Shown in pieces: positions 8,761-27,991 of a DNA stretch of 64,000 nt. The stretch comes from an uncultured bacterium (GTDB lineage Bacteria; Actinomycetota; Acidimicrobiia; Spongiisociales; ZC4RG35). The notes beneath the pieces were generated by a model. The model was not told the origin of the DNA, searched no databases, and was given only the letters and a program-made list of their open reading frames with translations. A program made the translations under genes and the position numbers. Location: contig CAVUYZ010000002.1 of assembly GCA_963745865.1 (NCBI GenBank), positions 101,514 through 165,513 of the forward strand, in the 5' to 3' direction. The stretch's first letter is position 1, and the number at the start of each line of letters is the position of its first letter.

Positions 8761-8766
8761 CAATGC

Positions 8767-10250: not shown

Positions 10251-10251
10251 C

Positions 10252-10921: not shown

Positions 10922-10930
10922 TCGTAGTTG

Positions 10931-11005: not shown

Positions 11006-11756
11006 GCGGCAGGATACCCGTTACACCTATCGCCTCGTCAATTCGGAGGCACTCAATCCATGTCATTGCCGTGTGCCAGGCATCCGTCGACCGGCAGATC
11101 CGCGTTCGGGCGACGCCGTGCGCCAACGTGTTCTTTCTCTGGCCCGTTCCGGCCGGCTTGACGAACGACTTATCAAACCGCACCTCCGGCAAGGAGAGCT
11201 CGTGCTGCCACCACTCGCGTGCCTTCTCTTGGTTGTTTCCCTCGTGGAGGTGGAGATGGAGAACGACTTCAGGATCGTTGACCAGAAATGTCTCCACCCA
11301 TTCGAGAAACCGGCGGTGGATCCCGGGGTCGGAGTTCGTCACGCTCAGCATCTTCTTGGATTTCGATCCCTCTCCCCAGTACAGCGCAGTGCCGAGACAC
11401 CACAGCGGACTCGACCGGTACTGCTCATAGCTCTCACGGGCCGAGGCTTGGACTGCTTCGAGTTCCCGTCTTCGGCGCCACTGGGTGTCGCGTGGGATGC
11501 CTTGTTGGCTGCCGGTTCTGGCCTTGATGTCCTCGATCTGCTCAGCAGTGAGTTCGATATTGCGGCACCAGCCGGCGATCGTGCTCTTGGCGGCGCCGAC
11601 GACTGCGCCGATCTCACGGTACGTCCAGCCATGTTCCCGGAGCCGTCGACCGAGTTCGGCGCGCTCCCATTGGCTGAGGTCGTGAACGCGGTCGATCCGA
11701 CTCGAGATGTGGGCCGGAACAGGTGGGGTCACCGCTGCACCGTATCGATGGGCCAT
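10995..11756 (-). CDS. HTH-containing hypothetical protein embedded in the tRNA cluster
   Basis: WTYREIGAVVGAAKSTIAGWCRNI is a helix-turn-helix. A downstream LYWGEGSKSKKMLSV region is weakly LAGLIDADG-like. The 3' end overlaps tRNA-Lys by about 10 nt. Confidence 0.5.
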   Translation of the reverse strand: MAHRYGAAVTPPVPAHISSRIDRVHDLSQWERAELGRRLREHGWTYREIGAVVGAAKSTIAGWCRNIELTAEQIEDIKARTGSQQGIPRDTQWRRRRELEAVQASARESYEQYRSSPLWCLGTALYWGEGSKSKKMLSVTNSDPGIHRRFLEWVETFLVNDPEVVLHLHLHEGNNQEKAREWWQHELSLPEVRFDKSFVKPAGTGQRKNTLAHGVARTRICRSTDAWHTAMTWIECLRIDEAIGVTGILPPGR

Positions 11757-11812
11757 GACACGAATCGTGGTCTCGTCAACCGGGCGTCGGCCGAGTACCG
11801 TTGACTGACACA

Positions 11813-11886
11813 CGGGTTGTGGCGCAGCTTGGTAGCGCGCCTGCTTTGGGAGCAGGAGGTCGTGGGTTCAAGTCCCACCAACCCGA
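11813..11886 (+). tRNA. tRNA-Pro(TGG)
   Basis: Acceptor CGGGTTG/CAACCCG, anticodon loop TTTGGGA. Confidence 0.85.
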
Positions 11887-11957
11887 CCGATCACCCATCT
11901 CAGTGCTGTCCAGCGAGCTTTCAGCCTCACAGGCCCAGCGATATACTCGGCGGCTCC

Positions 11958-12028
11958 GCGGGTGTAGCTCAATGGTAGAGCCCCAGCCTTCCAAGCTGGT
12001 CATGAGGGTTCGATTCCCTTCACCCGCT
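11958..12028 (+). tRNA. tRNA-Gly(TCC)
   Basis: GCGGGTGTAGCTCAATGGTAGAGC, anticodon loop CTTCCAA, T-arm GGGTTCGATTCCC. Confidence 0.85.
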
Positions 12029-12095
12029 CGAAGAGTGGTCGTTGCCGGCTTGTGGCCGTGATGGCTGCCCCTCGGTAGCATTCCCTCCCCGCCGA

Positions 12096-12168
12096 GCCCC
12101 CGTAGCTCAGTGGACAGAGCAGGAGCCTTCTAAGCTCTTGGTCGGAGGTTCGAATCCTTCCGGGGGCG
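12096..12168 (+). tRNA. tRNA-Arg(TCT)
   Basis: GCCCCCGTAGCTCAGTGGACAGAGC, anticodon loop CTTCTAA, acceptor 3' CGGGGGC. Confidence 0.85.
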
Positions 12169-12210
12169 CAGTAGATTCGCGTCTGCCGAAGGCATCGAAT
12201 CGCTCTCCAT

Positions 12211-12285
12211 GGTGGCCGTAGCTCAGTTGGTTAGAGCGCCAGTTTGTGGAACTGGAGGTCGGGGGTTCAATTCCCCTCGGTCACC
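12211..12285 (+). tRNA. tRNA-His(GTG), with an encoded G at position -1
   Basis: G-GTGGCCGTAGCTCAGTTGGTTAGAGC, anticodon loop TTGTGGA. Confidence 0.85.
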
Positions 12286-14402: not shown

Positions 14403-15670
14403 TTGTCGAAGTTCAGCGAGAGCGGGGAGCTGCTGAAATGCAGCTTCTGCGGTAAGTCGCAGCGGCAGGTCAAGAAATTGATCGCCGGTCCCTGGCGTCT
14501 ACATCTGCGACGAGTGCATCGATCTCTGCAACGAGATCATCGAGGAGGAACTGTCGTCCTCGGAGGAGGTCGGTTTCACCGAGCTCCCCAAGCCCGTCGA
14601 GATCCGCTCCTATCTGAACGAGTACGTGGTAGGCCAGGAGCCGGCCAAGAAGGCCCTCGCCGTCGCTGTGTACAACCACTACAAGCGGGTGCGCACCGGC
14701 GAGCCCCGGCACGACGACGTCGAACTCGCCAAATCGAACATCCTGATGATCGGCCCCACCGGTTCGGGCAAGACCTTCCTGGTCCAGACCCTCGCCCGCC
14801 AGTTGAACGTCCCGATCGCCATCGCCGACGCCACCGCCCTCACCGAGGCCGGCTACGTCGGCGAGGATGTCGAGAACATCCTCCTCAAGCTGATCCAGGC
14901 CGCCGACTACGACGTCAAGCGGGCCGAGCAGGGCATCATCTACATCGACGAGATCGACAAGGTGGCGCGCAAAGGCCGAGAACCCGTCGATCACCCGGGA
15001 CGTGTCCGGCGAGGGCGTCCAGCAGGCGCTATTGAAGATCCTCGAGGGCACCGTTGCCAGCGTGCCGCCGCAGGGCGGCCGCAAGCACCCCCACCAGGAG
15101 TTCATCCAGATCGACACGTCGAACGTGCTGTTCATCTGTGGGGGAGCGTTCGCCGGCCTCGATGACATCATCTCGAACCGGATCGGCGCCAAGCACGTCG
15201 GGTTCGGTGCCGAGGTGCGGTCCAAGAACGATCTCCAGCGCTCCGAGGTGCTCTCGAAGGTGCTCCCCGAGGACCTGATCAAGTTCGGGCTGATCCCCGA
15301 GTTCATTGGCCGTCTCCCGATCGTGGCCACCGTCGAATCGCTCGACAAGGACGCCCTCGTCCAGATCCTCACCGAGCCGCGCAATGCGCTGGTCCGTCAG
15401 TACGCCAGGATGTTCGACATGGACGGCGTCGACCTGGTGTTCACCGACGACTCGCTCGATGCGATCGCCGACCAGGCGATCCTGAGAGGCACCGGAGCCC
15501 GCGGACTGCGTGCGATCCTGGAGGAGGTCCTACTCAACACGATGTTCGACATCCCGTCTCGGGAGGACATCGGACGGGTGGAGATCACCAAGGAAGTGGT
15601 CGAGGAGCGGGTCAACCCGACCCTCGTCCCCCACTCCGAGATCGAGACCCCCCAAGAGCGCTCCGCCTGA
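14403..15670 (+). CDS. clpX: ClpX ATPase, with two frameshifts at about 14490 and 14990
   Basis: [20 protein letters not shown] is the zinc ribbon. [17 protein letters not shown] is the Walker A motif. [13 protein letters not shown] is followed by [15 protein letters not shown]. Confidence 0.9.
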
Positions 15671-15769
15671 CGGAGGGCTGCCCGGCCCATTGCGCTGCAT
15701 CTGACCGGTCGATAAGATGCGGCCTGGCGACGTCGAGCTTGTTTCTCGATGGCGACCCATAACGCACAT

Positions 15770-15924
15770 TCGCCTGTGGTCACAGACTGTGGCTGCATGG
15801 GGCAAACAACTGGGAGACTTCGACCTGTGGTCCGTTAGTTCGGTCACCGAGGAACGCAGCGAGTCAGTGGTGAGACCGGCCCTCCCCAAGCGAGCGGGAA
15901 CAGCTCTAGGGAGGCAACAACGAC
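15770..15924 (+). promoter_or_regulatory. Conserved leader element, copy 1 (candidate SD-sequestering cis-regulatory RNA)
   Basis: CGGTCACCGAGGAACGCAGCGAGTCAGTGGTGAGACCGGCCCTCCCC, then 21 nt, then GGGAGG, 10 nt, ATG. Shared with the copies at 17345, 21398 and 22930. Confidence 0.5.
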
Positions 15925-17164
15925 ATGAGTGCTATTGCACAGCGCAGGGCGGCGGCCGCCGTCGCGATCACAATGCTGCTCGCAGTGCTGCAGTTTGTAC
16001 TGTTTTCGATCAGTCCGATGCCGGCGAGTGCTGTCGGGCACGCGTCGACGTGCCAGGACTCGTCATACTCGAGTTCACTTTCAACTTTGTGAACGGGACG
16101 TCGAGCTCCGGCGACAGACTTCTCGGGACAGCGACTACGAGTTCGACTGGCAACAGCTAACGGTGCAAGCGCAAGACCCAGGAGGCGTTCCATTCCGGGA
16201 ACCGGCGGCTCGGCCACGTTCCGAACGGAGTCCGGTATTGGCGTCGACGCGTTTCGTGCAGGCAGGTCTACACGAACGGCTGGGCGAACAACGGCGGTCA
16301 GACCCGACCAGACCGGTGATCCCAATTGGCGAATCGCCAGCTACAGAACGAGAATACAGTCAGACTTCGAAACGGTGAGACGTCGAGGCACACGACACAC
16401 GTCTCGACTACGTCGACCACACGATCAAGCACGACGTCGACCACGTCGGTTCAAGCACGACGTCGACTACGTCGGGATCAAGCACGACGTCGACTACGTC
16501 GGGATCAAGCACGACGTCGACTACTTCTGGATCGAGCACGACGTCGACGACGGCTCCGACCACCACGACCACACAGCCTGGACTGGGAACCTCGGTGACT
16601 ATGTGTGGATCGATACGAACGCTGACTGCACGCAAGATGGAGGCGAAACTCCCATTGGCCGGGGTTCAGGTGGATCTCTTCAACGATGGGGTTTTGTCGC
16701 CTCGACCTTCACCGACGCCAACGGCAAAGTACGTTTTCGGGAACTTGCTTGCCAGTAGCAGGTACCAGGTGCGCTTCACGCTGACCGATACCCCATCCAC
16801 GGACTACTCGTTCACGCCGGATTGCACGACGGGATACGCCGATGACGTCGACAGCGACGTGACCGCCGCGGTCGGTGTGAATGCAGCCCAGACGAGCTTC
16901 ATCAACCTACCGCTCGGTGTGAGTGATCTGACCTGGGATGCGGGCGTGGTCGCTATAGCGGTCGAGGGGATTCAGATCGAGTCCACGACGACCACGATCG
17001 CTCCAGTGACGACCGACACCCTTGCCGTTCACCGGATTGGACGACTCAGGAGTTCCTGCTGCTCGGCCTCGCCATCATGGTGGCGGGCTCGGCGTTGCTG
17101 TTCGCGGCATCTCGCCGTGAGGACGACGCGGTCGAGTCGCTCTCGACCGTGGACCGCCGACTGA
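15925..17164 (+). CDS. LPXTG-anchored surface protein paralog 1: signal peptide, N-domain, S/T-rich linker, Cna-B/SdrD-B-like domain and LPFTG sorting signal. At least five frameshifts; it may be a pseudogene.
   Basis: MSAIAQRRAAAAVAITMLLAVLQFVLFSISPMPASA. The N-domain pieces DYEFDWQQ and NGTSSSGDRLLGT are homologous to paralog 4. The middle part has GDYVWIDTNADCTQDGG...YQVRFT. The 3' end reads IQIESTTTTIAPVTTDTLPFTG followed by a TM segment and RRED, once two indels are corrected. Confidence 0.5.
16425..16559 (+). repeat. 27-nt coding tandem repeat (about 5 copies) forming the S/T-rich linker
   Basis: Repeating unit CAAGCACGACGTCGACTACGTCGGGAT. Confidence 0.7.
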
Positions 17165-17191
17165 ACTGAATGACCTGTTAGACAAGGATCC

Positions 17192-17223
17192 CAGAGGCCC
17201 GGAGCAATCGCTCCGGGCCTCTG
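17192..17223 (+). terminator. Hairpin terminator after paralog 1
   Basis: CAGAGGCCCGGAGC-aatc-GCTCCGGGCCTCTG, a perfect 14-bp stem. Confidence 0.6.
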
Positions 17224-17344
17224 TCTCGTCCTGTTCGCCACTTCTCGAGAGAATGCCCGGCATGCGGAGCACTTGGGCCTATCTAGTCACCTTGAGTAGA
17301 AGCGCCAATGGCCCTGTCGCGGATCTTGCAAGATCACCCCGCGG

Positions 17345-17510
17345 TGTTACAAAGAGTGGTGTGGGACCACAGAGCGTGGTTGTACGGGGTAAACAACTGG
17401 GAGACTTTGACCTGCGGTCCGTTAGTTCGGTCACCGAGGAACGCAGCGAGTCAGTGGTGAGACCGGCCCTCCCCAAGTGAGCGGGTACAGCTTCAGGGAG
17501 GCAATTCGAG
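17345..17510 (+). promoter_or_regulatory. Conserved leader element, copy 2
   Basis: Same core as copy 1. It also has an upstream TGTGGGACCACA palindrome and a TTACAA box. Confidence 0.5.
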
Positions 17511-20500
17511 ATGAGTTCCATGGCACAGCGCAGGACGGCAGCCGCCGCTGCGATCACAATGCTGTTTGCAGTACTGCAATACGTACTGCTCTCAGTCAGT
17601 CCAATGCCGGCGTTCGCTGCGACCGAATTGGGCGGGACGGTCGAAATCGTTCGTCGATATCACGGGACCAAATGATGGGGGGTCGGACGCCCGGCCAGAA
17701 CCCTCAGTATGTCGAGGGTGATGTGATCCCGCTGTCGTTATGGGTCATGGAGCGGTGACTGCGAACAATACGAGTTCACTGCCTGCTTCGATTACGCGGC
17801 CCCAAATGGTGCACACGCCTCAGGCAGATCGCGCATAGTCAAACGGATTATGTCGTGCCGCCGAGGATGTTTGGACTGGCTTCGAGGTCGAACCAGACGG
17901 TGATGTCATCTTCCTGTTCGCTTGGCTCCGAGGCACCAACGTCGGTGAAGTGATACATCTATCTGCCCCTTCAACGAGGAGCCGAAGGTCGCAGCGGCGA
18001 CAGGTCATCGGTCGAATCATGACTGCGGACGCAAAGGCGATCACCGTTCAATCTACTCGACTGAGCTGGGCGACAAGATGGGGCAACTGAGAGCCCCATC
18101 ACGTCATATGCGGACACCGCGATCGGGATCTGATAACAAGTTCGGCGAGGTTGCACTGAACTGCTGGATGCCGGCGTCTGCCTCGTGACCGGTGCGACAG
18201 CTTCCTGGCAACGTCCGTCATCACGGAAACTGGCCAGGGCAACGCCGAGCCAACGCTGTTCGATTATGTAGCTGTTGGGCCGCTGGAGTTCACTTCGTGC
18301 AGCACGATCACCGTGATCAAGAAGACTGAGCGTCAGCTGGTCTCTCCGGGACTTCACGTTCGATCTGAGTGCGGCCGACGACGGTCATCGGACGGCGCCC
18401 TCGACGGTGACGGTGACTCCTACGTGGTGAACGACGTCCTGCCCGGGACGTACTCGCTCTCAGAAGACGACCCATCAGCCCAGCTGTTCGCCCTCGAGTC
18501 GATCGTGTGCGACGACGTCGATGTGGCTCGGTTCGACCTGTCGCTGTGCGGCGTCAACTTCAGTCCCACGGGACGTCAGCATCATCACCAACTCGAGCAC
18601 TGCTCCTGGTGCGATTTCGGTTGACAAGGATGCGTCGGTGTCGTCGGTGACGGCGCCGGGTGGTGATGTGACCTATACGGTGACGGTGACGAATACGTCG
18701 AGTCCGTCTCAGGGTGTGACGATCACCAAGATCGACGATGACAAGTTTGGTGTGATCTGGGATACGGCCACTGATTCGGGAATGGCTGCTGCGGATACGA
18801 CGTGTGACACCGAGTTGGGTGCTGACGGCAGGTATTTGGCTGCGGCTACCGATTCGTTCTCGTGCACCTTTGTTGGTTCGGTGACCGGTAATGCTGGTGA
18901 CACGCACACCAACATCGTGACGGGTTCGGGTGTCGATGATCTCGACAATCCGGTGTCGGATACGGGTACCGAGTCTGTGCGGGTGATCGCTGATCAGGTG
19001 ACGGTGACCATCCAGCCGGGTTCGTGCTACTACGACGGAGGCTCGTTCACGCCGGTGACGGTGACGATCGATCCTGACTCGGGTGCGACGGTCGAGCTGA
19101 AGGATGGTTCGACGGTTGTCGCGACGTTCTCGGGGACTGGCGGGTCTGAGGATCTGGCTCCTGGCACCTATGACGTGGTGGTGACGACTGCTGACAACTT
19201 CGAGTTGGTTGGCGACGTCCCCGAAACGGTCACAGTCGGCGAATGTGCTCCTGGTGCGATTTCGGTTGACAAGGATGCGTCGGTGTCGTCGGTGACGGCG
19301 CCGGGTGGTGATGTGACCTATACGGTGACGGTGACGAATACGTCGAGCCCGTCTCAGGGTGTGACGATCACCAAGATCGACGATGACAAGTTTGGTGTGA
19401 TCTGGGATACGGCCACTGATTCGGGAATGGCTGCTGCGGATACGACGTGTGACACCGAGTTGGGTGCTGACGGCAGGTATTTGGCTGCGGCTACCGATTC
19501 GTTCTCGTGCACCTTTGTTGGTTCGGTGACCGGTAATGCTGGTGACACGCACACCAACATCGTGACGGGTTCGGGTGTCGATGATCTCGACAATCCGGTG
19601 TCGGATACGGGCACCGAGTCTGTGCGGGTGATCGCTGATCAGGTGACGGTGACCATCCAGCCGGGTTCGTGCTACTACGACGGAGGCTCGTTCACGCCGG
19701 TGACGGTGACGATCGATCCTGACTCGGGTGCGACGGTCGAGCTGAAGGATGGTTCGACGGTTGTCGCGTCGTTCTCGGGGACTGGCGGGTCTGAGGATCT
19801 GGCTCCTGGCACCTATGACGTGGTGGTGACGACTGCTGACAACTTCGAGTTGGTTGGCGACGTCCCCGAAACGGTCACAGTCGGCGAATGTGCTCCTGGT
19901 GCGATTTCGGTTGACAAGGATGCGTCGGTGTCGTCGGTGACGGCGCCGGGTGGTGATGTGACCTATACGGTGACGGTGACGAATACGTCGAGCCCGTCTC
20001 AGGGTGTGACGATCACCAAGATCGACGATGACAAGTTTGGTGTGATCTGGGATACGGCCACTGATTCGGGAATGGCTGCTGCGGATACGACGTGTGACAC
20101 CGAGTTGGGTGCTGACGGCAGGTATTTGGCTGCGGCTACCGATTCGTTCTCGTGCACCTTTGTTGGTTCGGTGACCGGTAATGCTGGTGACACGCACACC
20201 AACATCGTGACGGGTTCGGGTGTCGATGATCTCGACAATCCGGTGTCGGATACGGGTACCGAGTCTGTGCGGGTGATCGCTGATCAGGTGACGGTGACCA
20301 TCCAGCCGGGTTCGTGCTACTACGACGGAGGCTCGTTCACGCCGGTGACGGTGACGATCGATCCTGACTCGGGTGCGACGGTCGAGCTGAAGGATGGTTC
20401 GACGGTTGTCGCGACGTTCTCGGGGACTGGCGGGTCTGAGGATCTGGCTCCTGGCACCTATGACGTGGTGGTGACGACTGCTGACAACTTCGAGTTGGTT

Positions 20501-21178
20501 GGCGATGTCCCCGAAACGGTCACAGTCGGCGACTGCACGCCGCCTCCGACCACGACCACTACGACGCGACCTGCGGCGACGGGTTCGATCGGTGACTACG
20601 TCTGGCTGGATGCAAATGCTGATGGACATCAGGGCGACTTCGAGCTTCCTCTCGAGGGAGTGAAGGTCGAACTGCTCGACAGCAACGGTGCGGTCTTGGC
20701 AACGACCACAACCAACGCCAACGGTGGGTATTTGTTCGACGGCCTCGCCGCCGGCACCTACCAGGTCCGGTTCACCATCGCTGACGACCCGAACGATCAG
20801 ACAAACCTGACATTTGGGCCGGCGCTGGCGGATGGCGTGCCTGTTGATCGAAACAGTGACGCCACGGACATCGGCGGGGACGATGCCGACGATGTCGGCG
20901 TCACCGGTTCGATCTTCCTGCAGCCCGGTCAGGATGACCTGACGTGGGATGCCGGAGTGATTGCCGTGGCGGTCCAAGGGATTCAGATCGAGTCCACGAC
21001 GACCACGATCGCTCCAGTGACGACCGACACACTGCCGTTCACCGGGTTCGAGAGCCAGGAACTGGCGATTCTCGGCCTGGTGGTGTTGGCGGCGGGCGGA
21101 ATGCTGCTGTTTACAGCGGCTCGCCGCGAAGATGAGGAGGCGGCGACGGAGACCACGGGGACGTGGTCGAGTCTCTGA
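17511..21178 (+). CDS. Large LPXTG-anchored surface protein paralog 2 with 3 DUF11-like repeats and an SdrD-B-like domain. The 5' ~1 kb has several frameshifts. 18521-21178 is one clean 885-aa frame.
   Basis: MSSMAQRRTAAAAAITMLFAVLQYVLLSVSPMPAFA; GDGDSYVVNDVLPGTYSLSEDDPS; three copies of ISVDKDASVSSVTAPGGDVTYTVTVTNTS; GDYVWLDANADGHQGD...YQVRFT; LPFTG followed by a TM segment and ARRED. Confidence 0.7.
18591..20535 (+). repeat. Three tandem copies of a 645-bp unit (about 99.5% identical), in frame within paralog 2
   Basis: The same 215-aa block appears three times with only 2-3 substitutions. Confidence 0.9.
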
Positions 21179-21201
21179 CTCCGAGCCGGTATCGGAAGAC
21201 T

Positions 21202-21234
21202 GAGGCGGCCCCGGGTTCAACCCGGGGCCGTCTC
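21202..21234 (+). terminator. Hairpin terminator after paralog 2
   Basis: GAGGCGGCCCCGGG-ttcaa-CCCGGGGCCGTCTC. Confidence 0.55.
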
Positions 21235-21397
21235 GCGACATGCCGCCACCACCACCGCTCTTGTGCTTCCTCATGTCGGAAGCCGATCGGGCTCGGTGGT
21301 GACGTATCGAGAGGTGATGCCTCCGACCCATTGCATGTGGCTAGTCACATCGGGCACACTGCAATGGTCATGCCTCCTCTCTTGTGGGGAGCTGGCA

Positions 21398-21568
21398 AGG
21401 TGTTACAAATAGTGGTGTGCGACCACAGAGCGTGGTTGCACGGGGCAAACGATTGGGCGACTTCGACCTGCGGTCCGTTAGATCGGTCACCGAGGAACGC
21501 AGCGAGTCAGTGGTGAGACCGGCCCTCCCCGAAACAAGCGGGCCATGAGGTCAGGGAGGCATCCATTA
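21398..21568 (+). promoter_or_regulatory. Conserved leader element, copy 3
   Basis: The core CGGTCACCGAGGAACGCAGCGAGTCAGTGGTGAGACCGGCCCTCCCC is identical to copies 1 and 2. GGGAGG lies 9 nt before the ATG. Confidence 0.5.
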
Positions 21569-22758
21569 ATGAGTGCTATGGCGCAACGCAGAACGGCGGC
21601 AGCCGCTGCGATCACGATGATGTTTGCGGTACTGCAATTAGTGCTGTTCGCGACGAATCCGGTCCCGGCAGGCGCTGCAGAGGACAACCCCGGCCCCGCC
21701 GAGTCGGTGTGCCCGATTCCTGATGCCGAAGGTGTCGTGGCGCGGGTTCTCAACAAGGGTGGCTACATCTATGCCAACTTGACCGCGGATGACGCTGATA
21801 CAGGTCCCTTCGACATCTCGCTCGCAGCTGGCGTATACGACGTGTCCCTGACGAGCTGGGACAACCACACGGGCCGGACACCAGACCCGTCGCAGACCCA
21901 AGAGCAGTATTTGTCCAGGGTTGGTTCGAAGGATCCAAAGTCTGGACGTCTTCTACGATCGATGACTTACCGGATGATCAAGACATCCTGACTCAGCTTG
22001 TCGATTCGGGCGTGACTGTTCCCGAGCTAGACGAGGTCGGGGCTGTGCACGCTGCCTACCCATCCGACATCGGCAACTCTCACCAGCCGGTGTGCGTGGT
22101 GTTCGTTCCGACCAAGACGACCACGACGACGGAGGCGACGACGACCACGACGACGGAGGCGACGACGACCACGACGACGGAGGCGACGACGACCACGACG
22201 ACGGAGGCGACGACGACCACGGCTCCGAGGACTTCGACCACGGTGGAGTCGGCAGTAGGGGCGATCGTGATCGAGAAGAGCGCCCCCCTGGCCGATGGAG
22301 ACACGTTCGTCTTCACTCTTGACGATGACCGTTTCGTTCTCCAGGACGGCGGTTCAGAGACGTTTGGCAATCTCGACCCGGGGACATACCTCGCCAGCGA
22401 GTTCAATGGATCCGCGTGGGGCCTGACGACCATTGCGTGCGACAATGGCTCGGCGGGCACGATTGCCGATGATGGGTCCGAGGGCAGTGTCTCGATCGAC
22501 CTGGAAGCCGGAGAGACCGTGACCTGCGTGTTCTCCAACGCGCCGGTCGAGGTCCTGGGGATTCAGATCGAGTCCACGACGACCACCATCGCTCCAGTGA
22601 CGACCGACACCCTGCCCTTCACCGGGTTCGAGAGCCAGGAACTGGCGATTCTCGGACTGGTGGTGTTGGCGGCGGGTGGCGTGCTGCTCTTCGCAGCGAC
22701 ACGTCGTGAAGAGGATGACCTCGTGACCGAGGTCGTCGGAAGCTGGTCTCGCGACTGA
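21569..22758 (+). CDS. LPXTG-anchored surface protein paralog 3, with one frameshift at about 21925
   Basis: MSAMAQRRTAAAAAITMMFAVLQLVLFATNPVPAGA; four copies of TTTTTTEA; IQIESTTTTIAPVTTDTLPFTGFESQELAILGLVVLAAGG. Confidence 0.75.
22117..22212 (+). repeat. Four copies of a 24-nt coding repeat (TTTTTTEA)
   Basis: ACGACGGAGGCGACGACGACCACG repeated. Confidence 0.7.
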
Positions 22759-22786
22759 TCGAGCGCCCGCTCGGAGACAACTGGAA

Positions 22787-22810
22787 GGGCCCCGGGTTCG
22801 CCCGGGGCCC
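22787..22810 (+). terminator. Hairpin after paralog 3
   Basis: GGGCCCCGGG-ttcg-CCCGGGGCCC. Confidence 0.5.
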
Positions 22811-22929
22811 ATCCGCGTCCGATGGTCTCGTTGGAAGTGACACAGGACTCTTGAGTGGTCCTGGGGCTGGAGCTACACCGAGTGGTGAAGACGCCACAGA
22901 TAGTGGCGAATGGGGCTCTCAGGGCGACG

Positions 22930-23028
22930 AAGACCCGTGGCCTGGTAGATCGGTCACCGCAGGCCACAGCGAGTCAATGGTGAGACCGGCCCTCCCCAGA
23001 GATGAGCGAAAGCTCGGGGAGGCACGAA
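22930..23028 (+). promoter_or_regulatory. Conserved leader element, copy 4 (diverged)
   Basis: CGGTCACCGCAGGCCACAGCGAGTCAATGGTGAGACCGGCCCTCCCC, then GGGGAGG 7 nt before the ATG. Confidence 0.45.
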
Positions 23029-24189
23029 ATGGGTGCCACGACACAGCGCAGGCTGGCAGGCATCGCTGCACTGCTACTCCTGCTGACAGCACTGCAACTG
23101 GTGGTGTCGGCGAATTCGAGACCGGCGCTCGCCGCCGACCAACCGACGCTCGTCGAAGGGAACCCGACCTGCGCCGATTTCGGCTCGTACGAGCTGAGGC
23201 TCAAGATCGAGGCGGGCGATGAGCTGGACGACGGCAACTCCGGCGAATACGTCTCGGGCGACCTTGATTGTCGACGTCGACATCTACGAGACATCCGCCG
23301 GATGGGAGTTCGACTGGTCCGCAAACCACGACGTTGGAATCGTCGTTGCCAAGGGAGGTCCGGTAGCGAACCTCTACACGTACGAAGGCGCACAGAGTGA
23401 CTCCGGTTTGCATGCTCCGTTCAATTCCAACAGTGGGAGTTGGTACGGGCTGAGTCACATCTCGTTCTGCACGAGCACCAGCGATGACACACTCCGGGCA
23501 CGGATGACACGACGCCGGGGACAGATGACACGACTCCCGGCACGGATGCCACCACTCCGGTGACGAACGAAACCACGCCTGAAACCCGGGCCACGACACC
23601 TGCGACGTTGCCGCTCCTCGGGGCGATCGGAGACTTCGTGTGGTTCGATGCAGATCGGAACGGGCAACAGGACGACCCGGCGATCGAGATCCCGGTTCTC
23701 GGGGCAACTGTTGAACTCCTCGAGCCGTCGGGAACGGTGCTTGCCACCCAGCTGACCGGAGCCGATGGGCTGTACCTGTTCGACGGTCTCCCGGCCGGGA
23801 ACTATCGGGTTCAGGTGACGTATCAAGGAGCCGCATACACGCTTCCGAGGGCTTCGGGCGTTTCCAATGATCGGAACAGCGACGTGGATCCACTGGGCAA
23901 CGGCATCGGACGCACGGCCTTGATCAGTCTCGATGCGGGAGAAGTGGACCTGACGTGGGACGCCGGAATCGTCGTCGAGGTGTTGGCCGCCCAGATCGAG
24001 TCCACGACAACGACGATCGCAGTCGAACCGGTCGTCGTTGACACCCTGCCGTTCACAGGTTCCGATGTGGACCAGACGATCGCGCTTGCGATGATAATGA
24101 TCGTCGCCGGTGCCCTCTTGCTGCGTGCTGCATCCCGGCGGGAGGAAGAGACAATGTCCGACGTGACGGGGAGGTGGTCGAACGCCTGA
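23029..24189 (+). CDS. LPXTG-anchored surface protein paralog 4, with two frameshifts at about 23280 and 23500
   Basis: MGATTQRRLAGIAALLLLLTALQLVVSANSRPALA; AGWEFDWSANHD; three copies of PGTDDTT; GDFVWFDADRNGQQDD...YRVQVT; LPFTGSDVDQT followed by a TM segment and SRREE. Confidence 0.75.
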
Positions 24190-24222
24190 ACTTGGGATGT
24201 TCCTGAGGGATAGTCTACGACG

Positions 24223-24260
24223 AGTGGTTCCGCGATTTCAACGGAGATCGCGGAACCACT
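24223..24260 (+). terminator. Hairpin terminator after paralog 4
   Basis: AGTGGTTCCGCGAT-ttcaacggag-ATCGCGGAACCACT, a 14-bp stem. Confidence 0.55.
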
Positions 24261-24285
24261 GTGTGAGGTTCTACGTCGAACTCGC

Positions 24286-24951
24286 ATGACAACCATCACA
24301 CCAAACATCCGGGCAATCGCTGCGGCGATGTGCCTTTCCATTCTGCTGGCGGCGTGCAGCGCCGACGCATCATTGGCACGACTGTGCCGACGACGGATGG
24401 CCAGCCGACCACGACGACAACCCCACCTCCCCCGACGACTACTTCACCACCACGACGACAACTCCGACAACGGGAGCGCCGTCGACGACGACGCCGACCG
24501 CCGACGGGGAGATGTCGACGGCTGCCCGAGCCACCATCGAAGAGATCGAGAACGCCGCCAGATCAGGAGATCTCCTGCGGCTCGCCGAGCTCGCATTGTC
24601 GGGCGATGTGCTGTTCACGGCCTCGTTCGGGCAGGAGTTCTCCGACCCCGCCGAGCTGGCTGCGTACTGGGAAGGCATCGAAGGACCGTCGATCCCGGAG
24701 GTGATTCTCGGCCTGCTCGATGCCGGCTACACCCAGACCCTCGCAGCTATGAAGATGGCACGCAAGTCGCCATCCACGTTACCCCTGCAGTCATGGGAGA
24801 GGATTCCACGGCCGCCGACCGCGCCCGGCTCGAGTCGATCTTCGGGGAGGACACCGTAGCGTCCTGGTACGCCGACGGCATGTACCTGGGTTGGAGGATC
24901 GGGCGTCGACGCCGATGGGAACTGGCGGTTCCTCGTCATCGGCGACTGAGA
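24286..24951 (+). CDS. Hypothetical lipoprotein with a Thr/Pro-rich linker; 2-3 frameshifts
   Basis: MTTITPNIRAIAAAMCLSILLAACS has a lipobox. It is followed by TTTTTPPPPTTT, then ATIEEIENAARSGDLLRLAEL...WRIGIDADGNWRFLVIGD. Confidence 0.55.
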
Positions 24952-24959
24952 GCGGTTGC

Positions 24960-25330
24960 TCCTCCTCGGGGGGACAGGCGAGCGTCAGCGGGACCAGGGG
25001 CTAGTTGCGTGACAATGCCCCCCTGGGTTCGCGGGCGAACCCGGTCCCCCCTGCGGAGGGACAAACAACGACAATGCCCCCCTTTCCCCCCGGGGTTCAG
25101 CACGACGAACCCTGTCCCCCCTGCGGAGGGAGAGACAACGACGATGCCCCCCTGTCCCCCTGCGGAGGGACAAACGCACGACAATGCCCCCCTGGGTTCG
25201 CAGGGCGAACCCGTGTCCCCCCTGCGGAGGGACAAACAATGACGAGAGAACCCTGTTCTCCGTGCGGAGGGACAAACAGGGGACGAACAAACCCTGCGAA
25301 TTGGCGGAAGGGGGACGGTTGGGGATGTTG
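24960..25330. repeat. Cluster of alternating GC-rich palindromic repeats (hairpin A and hairpin B); not a CRISPR array
   Basis: Hairpin A is GTCCCCCCTGCGGAGGGACAAAC; hairpin B is GGGTTCGCGGGCGAACCC. At least 5 copies of A with irregular 17-47 nt spacers that contain further repeats. Confidence 0.6.
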
Positions 25331-25396: not shown

Positions 25397-27991
25397 GTGA
25401 TGAACCCGACCTACGAACCCCGAGACGTCGAAGCCCATTGGTACGCCAAGTGGGAGGAGGCCGGAATCTTCCGGCCTGAGTTCCGCCCCGATGGGAAGCC
25501 CTACGCGGTCGTGATCCCGCCTCCGAACGTGACCGGCGTGCTGCACATGGGCCACGCCCTCAATCACACGATCCACGACACGATCATCCGCCGCAAGCGC
25601 ATGCAGGGGTACGCGGCGCTGTGGGTCCCCGGGACCGATCACGCCGGCATCGCCACCCAGAACGTCGTCGAGCGCGAGCTTGCTGTCGAGGGCATGGATC
25701 GTCACGAGCTCGGCCGCGAGGAGTTCATCCGTCAGGTGTGGGAGTGGAAGGACATCTATCACGCTCGCATCACCAATCAGATCCGCCGGATGGGGTCTTC
25801 GTGTGACTGGACCCGCGAGCGCTTCACCCTCGACGACGGCCTGTCTGACGCGGTCAACGAGGTGTTCGTCAGGTTGTACGAAGAGGACCTCATCTATCGA
25901 GGCAACCGGATCATCAACTGGTGTCCCCGGTGTGGCACGGCGCTCGCCGAGATCGAGGTCGAATACCGCGACGTGCAAGGCACGCTGACCCACATCCGGT
26001 ATCCGTTCGTGGACGGTGACGGCGGCATCGTCGTCGCCACCACCCGCCCCGAGACGATGCTCGGCGACACTGCCGTGGCTGTCCACCCCGACGACGAACG
26101 ATATGCGGCCATGGTGGGGAAGATGGTGCGTCTGCCCGTGGTCGGGCGTGAGATCCCGATCATCGCCGACGAGGCAGTCGATCCCGAGTTCGGGTCCGGA
26201 GCAGTCAAGGTCACACCCGCCCACGATCCCAACGACTTCGAGATCGGTGAACGGCACGGCCTCGAGAAGATCGCAGTTCTGGATGCGGAGGCGATCGTCA
26301 CCGCCGAGGGAGGCAGGTTCGAGGGATTGGATCGTTTCGCAGCCCGCGCTGCCATTCGCGAAGCGCTCGAAGCCGAAGGCGCCCTCGTTCAGATCGAAGA
26401 GCACAACCACTCCGTCGGGCACTGCTACCGCTGCGACACGATCATCGAGCCGTATCTGTCTGACCAGTGGTTCGTGGCGGTCAAGCCGCTCGCCGAGCCC
26501 GCCATGGAGGCCGTGCGGGACGGCTCGAACCGGTTCATTCCCGAACGCTGGGACAAGACCTATTTCCACTGGATGGAGAACCTTCGGGACTGGACGATCA
26601 GCCGCCAGATCTGGTGGGGCCATCGCATTCCGGCCTGGTATTGCGACAACGATCACGTGACCGTTGCCCGCAGTGAGGTCGAGGCATGCGCCGAATGCGG
26701 TTCCACCGAAGTCACCCAGGACCCCGACGTCCTCGACACGTGGTTCTCGTCGGCGCTGTGGCCGTTCTCGACCCTCGGATGGCCCGAGGAGACCGAGGAT
26801 CTGGCACGGTTCTATCCGAACGACGTCCTCATCACCGGCTTCGACATCATCTTCTTCTGGGTTGCCCGGATGATGAAGATGGGGATCCATTTCATGGGCG
26901 ACGTCCCCTTCCGCGACACGATCATTCACGGTCTGGTGCGCGACGCCGACGGCAACAAGATGTCGAAGTCCCGTGGAAACACCCTCGACCCGCTCGAGGT
27001 TGCCGAGGAGCACGGCGCCGATCCGCTTCGTCTCGCTCTGATCCAGGCGGCGAACCCCGGCCAGGACGTTCCCTTGAACATGGAGTGGGTCGAAGGCACG
27101 AGGAAGTTCGGCAACAAGCTCTGGAACGGGACACGGTTCGTGCTGCGAAGTGTCGAGCCGGGCACGGTGCCGGCCAATGGCGGCTATCCGGATGCCCCAT
27201 CGGCGATCGATGCATGGATCCTGTCGCGGCTGTCAACGGTCTCGACACGATTCGACGAGCTGTGCGACGAATACCGGTTCAGTGATGCGTTCAGCCTGCT
27301 CTACAGCTTCACGTGGTCAGAGGTCTTCGACTGGTACGTCGAGATGTCCAAGGGTGCCCTCGCCAACGAGGAGACCGCCGAGACGACCAAGCAGACGCTC
27401 GGTGTCGTCATCCGCGACGTCATCAAACTGTTCCATCCAGCGATCCCGTACCTGACCGAAGAGCTCTGGATGAATGTGGTCGGTGACGGCTTCGTCGCCG
27501 GTGCCGACTGGCCGCAGGTGCCCGCGTTCGACGGGCCGGTCGAGATGAGCGACATCCAGGATCTGATCTCCGGTGTCCGGCGATTCCGGGCCGAGCAGGG
27601 GATCTCGCCTCGCCAGGCGCTGACGCTCAAAGTCGAGTCTCCGGCCGGTTCGAGCCTCCCGAAGTGGGCCGAGCGGCTCCTCGTCGACCTGGCAGCCTGT
27701 GAGGTCGAGATCGCGTCCGAGTCACCCGAAGAGGGCCACACCCGGATCGTGGCCGGTCGGTATCAAGGGTTCATCCCGCTCGACGGTCTGATCGATGTGG
27801 ATGCTGAGCGGGAGCGACTCTCGAAGCGGATGGCCGACGCTCAGGCGGATCTCGACAAGGTCGAACGCAAGCTCGGCAACGAGGCTTTCATGTCGAAGGC
27901 CCCGGAAGAGATCGTCGAGAAGGAACGCGGGAAGCAGGCAGAGCTCTCGGACCTCATCGCCAAGCTCCAATCACAGCTGGACCTGCTCTGA
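25397..27991 (+). CDS. valS: Valyl-tRNA synthetase
   Basis: PPPNVTGVLHMGHALNHTI is the HIGH motif and KMSKS is present. Intact 864 aa. Confidence 0.95.
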   Translation: MMNPTYEPRDVEAHWYAKWEEAGIFRPEFRPDGKPYAVVIPPPNVTGVLHMGHALNHTIHDTIIRRKRMQGYAALWVPGTDHAGIATQNVVERELAVEGMDRHELGREEFIRQVWEWKDIYHARITNQIRRMGSSCDWTRERFTLDDGLSDAVNEVFVRLYEEDLIYRGNRIINWCPRCGTALAEIEVEYRDVQGTLTHIRYPFVDGDGGIVVATTRPETMLGDTAVAVHPDDERYAAMVGKMVRLPVVGREIPIIADEAVDPEFGSGAVKVTPAHDPNDFEIGERHGLEKIAVLDAEAIVTAEGGRFEGLDRFAARAAIREALEAEGALVQIEEHNHSVGHCYRCDTIIEPYLSDQWFVAVKPLAEPAMEAVRDGSNRFIPERWDKTYFHWMENLRDWTISRQIWWGHRIPAWYCDNDHVTVARSEVEACAECGSTEVTQDPDVLDTWFSSALWPFSTLGWPEETEDLARFYPNDVLITGFDIIFFWVARMMKMGIHFMGDVPFRDTIIHGLVRDADGNKMSKSRGNTLDPLEVAEEHGADPLRLALIQAANPGQDVPLNMEWVEGTRKFGNKLWNGTRFVLRSVEPGTVPANGGYPDAPSAIDAWILSRLSTVSTRFDELCDEYRFSDAFSLLYSFTWSEVFDWYVEMSKGALANEETAETTKQTLGVVIRDVIKLFHPAIPYLTEELWMNVVGDGFVAGADWPQVPAFDGPVEMSDIQDLISGVRRFRAEQGISPRQALTLKVESPAGSSLPKWAERLLVDLAACEVEIASESPEEGHTRIVAGRYQGFIPLDGLIDVDAERERLSKRMADAQADLDKVERKLGNEAFMSKAPEEIVEKERGKQAELSDLIAKLQSQLDLL

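What the first reader, a model, noticed from the sequence alone, without database searches (positions are those of the whole stretch)
15770..23031. Conserved ~100-170 nt 5' leader shared by four sortase-substrate genes: candidate undescribed SD-sequestering cis-regulatory RNA
Upstream of each of the four paralogous LPFTG surface-protein genes, whose ATGs are at 15925, 17511, 21569 and 23029, there is a highly conserved noncoding block. Its core reads YGGTCACCG-AGG-NN-CRCAGCGAGTCARTGGTGAGACCGGCCCTCCCC. The core is identical in copies 1-3. It is still recognisable in copy 4, even though that paralog's coding sequence has diverged strongly. Twenty to twenty-five nucleotides downstream is a GGGAGG ribosome-binding site, 7-10 nt before the ATG. 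The conserved CCCTCCCC tract is the exact complement of that site, so an anti-SD/SD helix is predicted. Upstream, CGGTCACC can pair with GGTGA(GA)CCG to form an imperfect hairpin whose loop holds the most conserved bases, CGCAGCGAGTCA. The noncoding block is conserved more strongly than the adjacent coding sequence, and an expression-platform-like SD-sequestering helix is present. Together these argue for a structured regulatory RNA (a riboswitch, RNA thermometer, or protein/sRNA-bound translational operator) controlling cell-wall-anchored adhesin-like proteins. It does not resemble any riboswitch class I can recall: not TPP, SAM, cobalamin, glycine, c-di-AMP/ydaO, ZTP or guanidine.
Basis: partly seen in the sequence, partly recalled or inferred. 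Interest (0 to 1): 0.85.

Follow-up and report, generated by a model that had tools for sequence, protein, structure and literature searches.

The report
Known c-di-GMP-II-type riboswitches before adhesin genes
The four conserved leaders are real, but they belong to a riboswitch family already in Rfam (the c-di-GMP-II-GAG variant, RF03169); here each one probably switches on translation of a cell-wall-anchored surface protein, so the finding is a correct observation of a known kind of element.

Summary
Four copies of an ~87-nt block lie 35-50 nt upstream of four paralogous LPFTG surface-protein genes.

The block is not undescribed. All four copies match Rfam RF03169 (c-di-GMP-II-GAG riboswitch aptamer) over the full model, at 54-61 bits against a gathering score of 40.

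- CCCUCCCC is the 3' strand of helix P1.
- In free folds it pairs with the GGGAGG ribosome-binding site.
- When the aptamer is imposed, it pairs instead with the 5' GGG and an upstream conserved GGGG, which releases the site.

This predicts a translational ON switch.

The same family was found in at least 120 other genomes. In 16 Acidimicrobiia loci it sits in the same clpX-adjacent position. Helices and pseudoknot covary strongly, and many downstream genes encode LPXTG or other secreted proteins. This mirrors the canonical class II switches upstream of Clostridioides difficile sortase substrates.

To my knowledge the ligand of the GAG variant (c-di-GMP or a related signal) has not been validated, and it cannot be tested here. 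Novelty: already known. Interest is low.

The parts
15804..15890 (+). Riboswitch aptamer, copy 1 (Rfam RF03169, c-di-GMP-II-GAG)
   Evidence: cmscan gives 57.5 bits against a gathering score of 40, covering model positions 1-86 of 86. Inner P1 5' strand GGG is at 15812-15814. The pseudoknot strands are 15841-15848 and 15869-15878.
17391..17477 (+). Riboswitch aptamer, copy 2
   Evidence: 61.2 bits, full-length match. Pseudoknot strands at 17428-17435 and 17456-17465.
21447..21533 (+). Riboswitch aptamer, copy 3
   Evidence: 58.2 bits, full-length match. Pseudoknot strands at 21484-21491 and 21512-21521.
22917..23000 (+). Riboswitch aptamer, copy 4 (most diverged)
   Evidence: 54.2 bits, full-length match. 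P2 differs from copies 1-3 through compensatory changes, C-G to U-A and U-A to C-G.
15799..15802 (+). Upstream G-run (GGGG), proposed outer 5' strand of a split P1. The equivalents are 17386-17389, 21442-21445 and 22912-22915.
   Evidence: The G-run is invariant in all four copies. It pairs with the CCCC of CCCUCCCC in aptamer-constrained folds of all four copies. The arrangement 'G-run ... GGG / CCY-N1-3-CCC' occurs in 24 of 28 aptamers of the clpX-linked loci and in 6 of 88 others. The pairing itself is inferred.
15880..15887 (+). CCCUCCCC, copy 1: 3' strand of P1 and also the anti-Shine-Dalgarno sequence
   Evidence: Pairs with GGGAGG in the unconstrained MFE fold. Its first CCC is the P1 3' strand in the Rfam alignment.
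17467..17474 (+). CCCUCCCC, copy 2
21523..21530 (+). CCCUCCCC, copy 3
   Evidence: In this copy the unconstrained MFE fold uses a different pairing, and the SD is 36% unpaired.
22990..22997 (+). CCCUCCCC, copy 4
15909..15914 (+). Shine-Dalgarno GGGAGG of gene 1. The equivalents are 17496-17501, 21554-21559 and 23017-23022.
   Evidence: Lies 6-10 nt upstream of each ATG. Invariant in alignment A1.
15925..17164 (+). Gene 1: LPFTG cell-wall-anchored surface protein, broken by several frameshifts in this assembly
   Evidence: Signal-peptide-like N-terminus MSAIAQRR.... SdrD_B domain. LPFTG at 17022. The ORF is fragmented.
17511..21178 (+). Gene 2: large LPFTG surface protein with three perfect 645-nt tandem repeats (copies starting at 18601, 19246 and 19891)
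   Evidence: SdrD_B at 1.7e-22; DUF7507 and SpaA-type hits. LPFTG at 21032. Repeat family D1.
21569..22758 (+). Gene 3: LPFTG surface protein, with one frameshift near 21990-22012
   Evidence: SpaA_4 domain. LPFTG at 22612.
23029..24189 (+). Gene 4: LPFTG surface protein, with two frameshifts
   Evidence: SdrD_B at 1.2e-24. LPFTG at 24046.
17356..17380 (+). Conserved tripartite element GTGGY-N4-7-RCCAC-N4-6-GTGGY between the putative -10 box and the aptamer. Also at 21412-21436 and 22882-22907; a partial copy lies at 15779-15793. Function unknown: either a 5' hairpin or a transcription-factor operator.
   Evidence: 3 matches in the window against 0.04 expected. In the fetched loci the pattern matches only eight, all of which have clpX next to the riboswitch. 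In seven of these eight the match lies within about 40 nt upstream of the riboswitch; L119 could not be checked this way. The RCCAC/GTGGY pair covaries, A-U to G-C.
15739..15765 (+). Inferred sigma-70-type promoter of unit 1 (-35 TTGTTT, -10 TAACGC). The equivalents are 17326-17353, 21382-21409 and 22851-22879.
   Evidence: Conserved TCTTG-N16-17-TAC/AA layout in alignment A5. Clearer TTGAC(A/T)...(T)AT boxes occur at the same place in more distant relatives. The consensus scan itself found nothing, so the promoter is inferred only.
17194..17221 (+). GC-rich terminator-like hairpin after gene 1. Similar hairpins follow the other genes at 21207-21229, 22787-22810 and 24224-24259.
   Evidence: Read directly from the sequence. 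Their presence suggests that each gene is its own transcription unit with its own riboswitch.

Best explanation
Each of the four leaders is a member of the c-di-GMP-II-GAG riboswitch family (Rfam RF03169), a variant of the class II cyclic-di-GMP riboswitch. Each is joined to a translational expression platform.

The aptamer consists of:
- a short P1 (GGG:CCC);
- P1b (GAC:GUC);
- a P2 hairpin;
- a pseudoknot between the P2 loop (CGGUCACC) and the 3' tail (GGUGAGACCG).

The tract CCCUCCCC directly after the pseudoknot has two alternative partners.
- Without ligand it pairs with the GGGAGG ribosome-binding site 21-23 nt downstream, and translation is off.
- With ligand bound, the pseudoknot and P1 are locked. 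CCC pairs with the 5' GGG, and CCCC pairs with a conserved GGGG 6-9 nt further upstream. The ribosome-binding site is then free and the surface protein is made.

The four genes are separate transcription units, each with its own promoter, riboswitch and terminator hairpin. One intracellular signal therefore co-induces a set of sortase-anchored, adhesin-like proteins. The signal is most likely c-di-GMP or a closely related nucleotide second messenger.

Basis of each step:
- Shown by computation: family membership, the fold with its covariation, and the alternative pairings.
- Inferred: the ON direction, the split P1, the promoters and the ligand.
For: **Family membership.** All four copies are full-length hits at 54.2-61.2 bits against a gathering score of 40. 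Lower-scoring matches to other families of clan CL00127 were suppressed in favour of RF03169.

**Fold.** On 118 family members aligned to a covariance model:
- 82.5% of cells are paired, against 33-38% when the 3' partners are slid;
- the covariation score is 0.401, against 0.153 in shuffles (0 of 500 shuffles reach it);
- P2 has changes on both sides at 9 of 9 pairs.

**Pseudoknot.** One position that the search pattern left free is A-U in 65 sequences, G-C in 42, G-U in 1 and never A-C.

**Covariation among close copies.** Within the 7 close copies (window plus L092), three P2 pairs show 3 pair types each.

**Expression platform in the window.** The SD unpaired probability rises from 0.004, 0.012, 0.357 and 0.016 in free folds to 0.51, 0.26, 0.59 and 0.55 with the aptamer imposed. 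The upstream GGGG then pairs with CCCC in all four copies.

**Expression platform across the family.**
- In 61 translational-type members the SD window becomes more accessible in 46 (Wilcoxon p = 3e-6).
- Cognate anti-SD/SD duplexes average -11.2 kcal/mol, against -9.6 +/- 0.27 for permuted pairings (0 of 5000 permutations reach it). Relatives show compensatory variants such as CCCGUCCC/GGGAUGGG and CCUGUCCC/GGGAUAGG.
- About 30 other members have a terminator whose 5' arm is the aptamer's own GAGACCGRCCC, which is again ON logic.

**Orthology.** clpX lies directly upstream of the riboswitch in 16 loci, with ClpX 70-89% identical.

**Gene context.** LPFTG or LPLTG proteins follow the motif in at least 11 other loci. 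Downstream proteins carry DUF11, DUF7507, SdrD_B and SpaA domains, and one is a GGDEF protein.

**Precedent.** Class II c-di-GMP riboswitches are ON switches upstream of the sortase-dependent adhesins CD2831 and CD3246 in C. difficile (PMC6366702) and of surface-anchor genes (PMC9481103). Ligand-bound c-di-GMP-II turns translation ON (PMC7583470).
Against: - No experiment is available. Ligand binding, the transcription start site and regulation are all untested.
- The ligand of the GAG variant is not established. From memory, the abstract of Weinberg et al., PNAS 2017, says only that the c-di-GMP-I and -II variants 'might recognize different bacterial signaling molecules'. The paper could not be read here.
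- In the Rfam register, P1 is only 3 bp in these copies, and the outer 8 model pairs are unpaired. The split P1 that I propose is a thermodynamic prediction plus a lineage-specific sequence pattern, not a covariation proof.
- ViennaRNA cannot model the pseudoknot or the ligand. Imposing the aptamer costs roughly 7-12 kcal/mol in these four copies (median 12.6 across the family) before those terms are added.
- Copy 3's free fold does not use the simple SD helix.
- The family-wide accessibility shift is modest (median 0.32 to 0.48), and start codons in other loci were called crudely.
- No diguanylate cyclase, phosphodiesterase or sortase gene was seen in the window.
Confidence: 0.85

Rival explanations
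1. The RNA and switching mechanism are the same, but the ligand is not c-di-GMP. On this reading the GAG variant has changed specificity to another signalling nucleotide, such as another cyclic dinucleotide or a linear breakdown product. The adhesin cluster would then respond to that signal.
For: - Rfam keeps the family separate from canonical c-di-GMP-II, and RF03169 outscores the other families of its clan on all four copies.
- The family was defined as a binding-site variant whose ligand 'might' differ (Weinberg et al. 2017 abstract, from memory).
- One genome (L078) carries a canonical c-di-GMP-I riboswitch 4 kb from two GAG-variant copies, so the two types coexist.
Against: - The gene context looks like a classic c-di-GMP regulon: LPXTG adhesin-like proteins, many small secreted proteins, and one GGDEF diguanylate cyclase directly downstream in L040.
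- The same association is documented for canonical class II switches.
- No gene context points to a different nucleotide.
Confidence: 0.3
2. The aptamers work as OFF switches, or as transcriptional rather than translational switches. Ligand binding would stabilise the SD-sequestering helix, for example by stacking it on P1, or would act on RNA stability or termination.
For: - In the Rfam register, P1 overlaps the anti-SD helix by only 2-3 nt.
- c-di-GMP riboswitches of both signs exist (PMC6366702).
Against: - The full 6-bp SD helix and the 3-bp P1 share two C residues, so they cannot coexist.
- With the aptamer imposed, the SD becomes more accessible in all four copies and in 46 of 61 relatives.
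- Terminator-type relatives use the aptamer's 3' strand as the terminator's 5' arm, which can only give ON logic.
- There is no terminator between aptamer and ATG here; the gap is only 35-47 nt.
Confidence: 0.1
3. The conservation reflects DNA-level constraints or recent gene duplication. On this reading the constrained sequences are a promoter and a transcription-factor operator, and the Rfam hits are decaying or non-functional copies.
For: - The four genes are tandem paralogues.
- A conserved promoter-like layout and a GTGGY/RCCAC/GTGGY element do lie just upstream of each aptamer.
- The genes are frameshifted in this assembly.
Against: - The aptamer is conserved at the same locus in genomes whose ClpX is only 70-89% identical. 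Helices vary by compensatory changes, while the pseudoknot and core stay fixed.
- The linker between anti-SD and SD is free to vary while both partners are invariant or co-vary.
- The frameshifts also hit the housekeeping gene clpX, so they are best read as assembly errors rather than pseudogenisation.
- The upstream element is additional to the riboswitch, not an alternative to it.
Confidence: 0.04

Closest known systems
c-di-GMP-II-GAG riboswitch aptamer (Rfam RF03169, clan CL00127; defined by Weinberg et al., PNAS 2017)
   Same: - All four copies are full-length matches above the gathering score.
- They have the same helices and the same pseudoknot.
- They have the same invariant core, GAG(Y)CA(R)UGG(Y)GAGACCG.
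- They sit in a 5' UTR on the strand of the downstream gene.
- 118 further members recovered here share the architecture.
   Different: There is no difference at the level of the aptamer. Two lineage-specific details stand out.
- The outer P1 of the Rfam model is replaced by a split P1: a G-run, an A-rich asymmetric loop, then GGG. This is typical of the aptamers in the clpX-linked Acidimicrobiia loci, found in 24 of 28 of them against 6 of 88 others.
- The whole P1 3' strand doubles as the anti-SD sequence.
Canonical c-di-GMP-II riboswitch (Rfam RF01786), e.g. Cdi-2-3 and Cdi-2-1 upstream of the C. difficile sortase substrates CD2831 and CD3246
   Same: - Same fold class and same Rfam clan.
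- Same ON logic.
- Same kind of target: sortase-anchored adhesin-like surface proteins (PMC6366702; PMC9481103).
   Different: - The other models of the clan score lower than the GAG model on these sequences.
- The variant differs at binding-site positions, and its ligand has not been validated to my knowledge.
- The C. difficile switches act on transcription termination, whereas these are SD-sequestering translational switches.
- The hosts are high-GC Acidimicrobiia, not Clostridia.
c-di-GMP-I riboswitch Bc2 upstream of the collagen adhesion gene cap in Bacillus thuringiensis
   Same: A cyclic-di-GMP ON switch in front of a cell-surface adhesin gene (PMC6366702).
   Different: It has an unrelated aptamer fold (GEMM-I, RF01051), and it acts by transcriptional read-through.

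Membership tests
c-di-GMP-II-GAG riboswitch (RF03169) | Covariance-model score at or above the curated gathering score, over the full model | tested here: met
   57.5, 61.2, 58.2 and 54.2 bits against 40, covering model positions 1-86 of 86 in all four copies.
c-di-GMP-II-GAG riboswitch (RF03169) | Scores better than the other families of clan CL00127 (to my knowledge the parent c-di-GMP-II and the sister GCG variant) | tested here: met
   cmscan kept RF03169 and dropped 8 lower-scoring overlapping clan matches on the four copies. The individual scores of the dropped families are not shown by the tool.
c-di-GMP-II-GAG riboswitch (RF03169) | Helices P1 (inner part), P1b and P2 supported by covariation | tested here: met
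   82.5% of cells are paired, against 33-38% for slid partners. P2 has changes on both sides at 9 of 9 pairs and P1b at 2 of 3. The four window copies form all inner P1 and P1b pairs, and all P2 pairs except one or two mismatches per copy. The outer 8 pairs of the Rfam P1 are not formed here.
c-di-GMP-II-GAG riboswitch (RF03169) | Pseudoknot between the P2 loop and the 3' tail | tested here: met
   CGGUCACC pairs with GGUG-AGA-CCG in all copies. The one pair left free by the search pattern is A-U in 65 sequences, G-C in 42, G-U in 1 and A-C in 0.
c-di-GMP-II-GAG riboswitch (RF03169) | The three binding-site nucleotides (G, A, G) that give the variant its name | tested here: inconclusive
   The window copies carry every upper-case (highly conserved) nucleotide of the Rfam consensus except the compensating pseudoknot pair G-C to A-U. 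This includes the invariant GAGA of GGYGAGACCG. I could not check which three positions define 'GAG', because the defining paper and the 3Q3Z structure paper are not held.
c-di-GMP-II-GAG riboswitch (RF03169) | Located in a 5' UTR, in the sense orientation, with an expression platform | tested here: met
   The aptamer ends 35-47 nt before each ATG on the same strand. An SD-sequestering helix is predicted.
c-di-GMP-II-GAG riboswitch (RF03169) | Selective binding of a small-molecule ligand | not testable with these tools
   Requires in-line probing, ITC or a reporter assay.
Canonical c-di-GMP-II riboswitch (RF01786) | Best-scoring clan model, with the canonical binding-site nucleotides | tested here: not met
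   RF03169 outscored the overlapping clan members on all four copies. On this basis I file the element under the variant, not the parent.
Sortase-anchored (LPXTG) surface proteins | N-terminal signal peptide, plus a C-terminal LPXTG motif followed by a hydrophobic segment and a positively charged tail | tested here: met
   - N-termini: MSAMAQRRTAAAAAITMMFAVLQLVLFATNPVPAGA and its paralogues.
- C-termini: LPFTG + hydrophobic stretch + RR(E/D), at 17022, 21032, 22612 and 24046.
- The L092 orthologue hits Pfam Gram_pos_anchor.
- No sortase gene was found in the window.

The most novel reading that the evidence does not exclude
The GAG variant may not sense c-di-GMP but a different, perhaps still uncharacterised, nucleotide second messenger. 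If so, this conserved Acidimicrobiia module would be the regulon of that signal. The module is clpX followed by one or more LPXTG adhesin genes. Each gene has its own promoter, a conserved GTGGY/RCCAC/GTGGY element and a split-P1 translational ON switch. The upstream tripartite element could be a second, undescribed regulatory layer, either a transcription-factor operator or an RNA element that competes with the pseudoknot strands.
Probability: 0.25. Interest if true: 0.6.

Novelty: already known. Interest (0 to 1): 0.18.

Why it matters
The finding mainly serves as a correct annotation. Four surface-protein genes of an uncultured Acidimicrobiia-like bacterium are each preceded by a class II-type cyclic-dinucleotide riboswitch. 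This implies that attachment or cell-surface remodelling in this little-studied lineage is controlled post-transcriptionally by a nucleotide second messenger, as in Clostridioides difficile.

The residual value is modest.
- To my knowledge the GAG variant's ligand has not been validated. This compact locus offers four natural sequence variants of one switch, with a simple SD-sequestering platform, and would be a convenient test system.
- The split P1, whose entire 3' strand doubles as the anti-SD sequence, is a clean example of how the aptamer and the expression platform are coupled.
- The conserved GTGGY/RCCAC/GTGGY element upstream is unexplained.

Tried and rejected
- **Defining papers.** I tried to read Weinberg et al. 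2017 (PMC5358364, by DOI and by PubMed id), Smith et al. 2011 (PMC3093532) and Lee et al. 2010 (PMC4538695). None is held. The positions that define 'GAG', and any ligand tests, could therefore not be checked. Full-text searches for 'c-di-GMP-II-GAG' returned only papers that list the Rfam model.
- **Source of the window.** The look-up of encoding contigs with the window's ClpP found no exact record. The taxon is inferred from the syntenic loci, which are mostly labelled Acidimicrobiia.
- **Promoters and terminators.** The consensus scan found no promoter upstream of any copy and no terminator between aptamer and ATG. The promoters are inferred from conserved TTG...TA boxes only.
- **Other Rfam families.** At E up to 10 in 15600-24300 there were only chance-level microRNA and sRNA matches.
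- **RNA thermometer or protein-bound operator.** Rejected, because the block is a complete riboswitch aptamer with a covarying pseudoknot.
- **Pseudogene cluster.** Rejected as the main reading, because clpX carries the same kind of frameshifts.
- **Signalling and sortase genes.** A six-frame motif scan for GGDEF, EAL, HD-GYP, PilZ and sortase signatures found nothing credible in the window. With this many indel errors, that is weak negative evidence.
- **My first constraint-folding script.** It failed on a wrong spacer length and was rerun.

Full report
**Observation.**
Four paralogous genes start at 15925, 17511, 21569 and 23029. Each is preceded by a conserved block. The repeat finder family D7 places 77-nt copies at 15812-15888, 17399-17475, 21455-21531 and 22922-22998, with 97%, 95% and 81% identity to copy 1. 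From CGGTCACC to CCCTCCCC, copies 1-3 are identical and copy 4 is recognisable.

GGGAGG lies 6-10 nt before each ATG. The linker between CCCTCCCC and GGGAGG varies freely while both flanks are invariant. The first ~110 nt of the coding sequence are less conserved than the leader: 81/73% against 97/95%.

All four proteins end in LPFTG followed by a hydrophobic segment and a charged tail, and they carry SdrD_B or SpaA-type domains. A degenerate pattern for the core matches 4 times in the window against 0.00 expected by chance.

**Identity.**
A scan of the whole window against Rfam 15 at gathering thresholds returns, besides seven tRNAs, exactly four hits. All are to RF03169, the c-di-GMP-II-GAG riboswitch aptamer.

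| Copy | Coordinates | Bits (gathering score 40) |
|---|---|---|
| 1 | 15804-15890 | 57.5 |
| 2 | 17391-17477 | 61.2 |
| 3 | 21447-21533 | 58.2 |
| 4 | 22917-23000 | 54.2 |

Each hit covers model positions 1-86 of 86. A permissive scan of 15600-24300 finds the same four hits. It reports that 8 lower-scoring overlapping matches to families of the same clan were removed, so the GAG model fits better than the other families of its clan. Nothing else credible appears.

**Anatomy.**
In the Rfam alignment the RNA has four parts:
- a short P1 (GGG 15812-15814 with CCC 15880-15882);
- P1b (GAC with GUC);
- a P2 hairpin;
- a conserved 3' tail.

The 'loop' CGCAGCGAGTCA consists of the 3' strands of P2 and P1b.

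Copy 4 differs from copies 1-3 in P2 by compensatory changes: C-G to U-A, U-A to C-G, and repair of a G.A mismatch to G-C. Over the seven close copies (window plus L092), three P2 pairs show three pair types each.

**The family elsewhere.**
They come mostly from Acidimicrobiia, Thermoleophilia, Frankiales/Mycobacteriales, Coriobacteriia and Chloroflexota. On 18 of these loci, Rfam assigned every site to RF03169 at 43-73 bits.

I built a covariance model from 22 sequences. It recovered 118 sites in 100 sources, including extra copies not caught by the pattern. Clusters of several copies per locus are common.

On that alignment the structure, including the pseudoknot, is well supported:
- 82.5% of cells are paired, against 33-38% when partners are slid;
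- the covariation score is 0.401, against 0.153 in shuffles (0 of 500 reach it).

The alignment is fitted to the model, which favours the structure, but the slide control is unambiguous. The pseudoknot position that the pattern left free (R/Y) is A-U in 65 sequences, G-C in 42, G-U in 1 and never A-C.

**Orthology, not just local duplication.**
tblastn shows clpX immediately upstream of the riboswitch in 16 loci, with ClpX 70-89% identical to the window's. clpP lies before it, and a tRNA cluster about 3.5 kb upstream, as in the window. The closest relative is L092, a MAG contig with ClpX 89% identical. It has three riboswitch copies in front of MSA(L/M)AQRR... paralogues, one of which is an intact 614-aa protein with SdrD_B and Gram_pos_anchor hits. 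Most of the syntenic loci are labelled Acidimicrobiia, so the window most likely comes from that class.

**Gene association across the family.**
A crude call of the first downstream ORF gives mostly proteins with signal-peptide-like N-termini. LPFTG or LPLTG sorting signals follow the motif in L003, L006, L050, L061, L062, L078 (twice), L082, L091, L101, L108 and L115.

Pfam on 78 of these proteins finds DUF11 (5), DUF7507 (4), SdrD_B (4) and SpaA-type domains, one GGDEF diguanylate cyclase and one nucleotide cyclase. Only a handful of the 78 match any given family, so many appear to be small secreted proteins without a known domain.

This resembles the regulons described for c-di-GMP riboswitches:
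- In C. difficile the four class II switches are ON switches. Two of them precede the sortase-dependent adhesins CD2831 and CD3246 (PMC6366702).
- Tandem c-di-GMP-II switches precede a surface-anchor gene in Paraclostridium (PMC9481103).

**Mechanism.**
Unconstrained folding of each leader pairs CCUCCC with GGGAGG, with a small nested hairpin in the linker. The SD is almost never free in copies 1, 2 and 4 (unpaired probability 0.003-0.025) and is partly free in copy 3 (0.36).

I then imposed the aptamer: inner P1, P1b and P2 enforced, and the pseudoknot strands blocked. The program then pairs the remaining CCCC with a GGGG 6-9 nt upstream of the P1 GGG in all four copies. That GGGG (15799-15802, 17386-17389, 21442-21445, 22912-22915) is invariant in the four leaders although it lies outside the Rfam model's paired core. 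The SD unpaired probability rises to 0.26-0.59.

The entire CCCUCCCC tract is thus the 3' strand of a split P1 in one state and the anti-SD in the other. This predicts a translational ON switch.

Three family-level observations agree with this.
- The 'G-run, A-rich spacer, GGGAGGC ... CCY-N1-3-CCC' layout is present in 24 of 28 aptamers of the clpX-linked loci and in 6 of 88 others.
- Cognate P1-3'-strand/SD duplexes are more stable than permuted ones: -11.2 against -9.6 +/- 0.27 kcal/mol, with 0 of 5000 permutations as low. Compensatory variants include CCCGUCCC/GGGAUGGG, CCUGUCCC/GGGAUAGG and CACUCCCAUC/GAUGGAGUG.
- Imposing the aptamer raises SD accessibility in 46 of 61 translational-type members (Wilcoxon p = 3e-6).

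About 30 other members, mainly from Thermoleophilia and Coriobacteriia, instead carry a terminator. Its 5' arm is the aptamer's own GAGACCGRCCC, so ligand binding can only prevent termination. The ON direction also matches what is reported for canonical class II switches.

These are thermodynamic and comparative inferences. The pseudoknot and the ligand are not in the energy model, and no transcription start is known.

**Transcription units.**
Each gene is followed by a GC-rich hairpin (17194-17221, 21207-21229, 22787-22810, 24224-24259). Each leader is preceded by a conserved TCTTG-N16-17-TAC/AA layout. In more distant relatives this becomes a clear TTGAC(A/T)...(T)AT promoter. The consensus scanner did not call these sites, so the promoters remain an inference.

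**Ligand.**
This cannot be decided here. From memory, the abstract of the paper that defined the variants says that variants of c-di-GMP-I and -II riboswitches 'might recognize different bacterial signaling molecules'. I could not obtain the text and found no later validation. The gene context (adhesins, secreted proteins, a GGDEF gene) favours c-di-GMP or something close to it. The coexistence of a c-di-GMP-I riboswitch near two GAG copies in L078 is compatible with either reading.

**Verdict.**
But the element is a member of a curated Rfam family, and its gene association has a well-studied precedent. It is already known, and interest is low. What remains open is the variant's ligand, the split-P1 coupling and the unexplained upstream GTGGY/RCCAC/GTGGY element.

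Noticed in passing
window 17356-17380, 21412-21436, 22882-22907 (partial copy 15779-15793); L003 3777-3801, L011 716-740, L050 2795-2820, L063 309-333, L091 4866-4901, L092 4891-4915, L095 3583-3607, L119 336-360: A tripartite element, GTGGY-N4-7-RCCAC-N4-6-GTGGY, sits between the putative -10 box and the riboswitch. It matches 3 times in the window against 0.04 expected. In the fetched loci the pattern matches only eight, all of which have clpX next to the riboswitch; where the riboswitch coordinates are listed (7 of the 8), the match lies within about 40 nt upstream of it. RCCAC and the second GTGGY covary, A-U to G-C. It could be a transcription-factor operator (an inverted repeat at the transcription start) or a 5' RNA hairpin. 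Its strands resemble the pseudoknot strands (GUGGU / GGUCACC), so it might compete with them.
   Followed up: partly
window 14403-15670 (clpX) and the four surface-protein genes, 15925-24189: clpX is split over three reading frames relative to the intact L092 orthologue: 14451-14492, 14491-14985 and 14972-15664 (Pfam fragments). The four LPFTG genes are likewise interrupted. This points to frequent indel errors in the assembly, typical of uncorrected long reads, rather than to pseudogenes.
   Followed up: partly
window 24990-25310: A ~320-nt intergenic stretch lies upstream of valS (25397-27991). It is built from about five imperfect direct repeats that combine two hairpin modules (GGGTTCGCGGGCGAACCC and GTCCCCCCTGCGGAGGGAC) with an ACAAACAACGACAATGCCCCCC spacer (repeat finder D12 and D14; sequence). 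There is no Rfam hit at gathering threshold.
   Followed up: no
window 18601-20535: Three perfectly identical 645-nt tandem repeats lie inside surface-protein gene 2 (repeat family D1). They may be real repeated Ig-like modules or an assembly artefact.
   Followed up: no
L078 5523-5615 (-), 1-63 (+) and 1203-1289 (+): An Actinomycetota MAG carries a canonical c-di-GMP-I riboswitch (RF01051, 41.7 bits) about 4 kb from two c-di-GMP-II-GAG copies. Those two copies precede LPFTG proteins.
   Followed up: no
L040 1300-2008: In a Frankineae MAG the GAG-variant aptamer lies directly upstream of a 217-aa ORF. This ORF is probably the single GGDEF match found among the 78 downstream proteins, judging by its C-terminal sequence; the scan does not name the matching member. 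If so, it is a direct link between this variant and c-di-GMP metabolism.
   Followed up: no
Frankiales/Mycobacteriales loci L018, L048, L053, L056, L058, L116, L051: In these lineages the GAG variant precedes very small (73-87 aa) secreted proteins with a conserved C-terminus...VK(Y/F)VR(N/D)ADG(S/T)(V/I)(T/R)(Q/R)(T/V)R. None of them was included in the Pfam scan, so their domain content is untested.
   Followed up: no
window 8677-12285 and 53098-53171: Seven tRNA genes are present, four of them in a cluster at 11813-12285. This cluster lies upstream of the likely trigger-factor gene (not checked), clpP and clpX. The same tRNA cluster lies about 3.5 kb upstream of the riboswitch in L003, L010 and L091.
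   Followed up: partly
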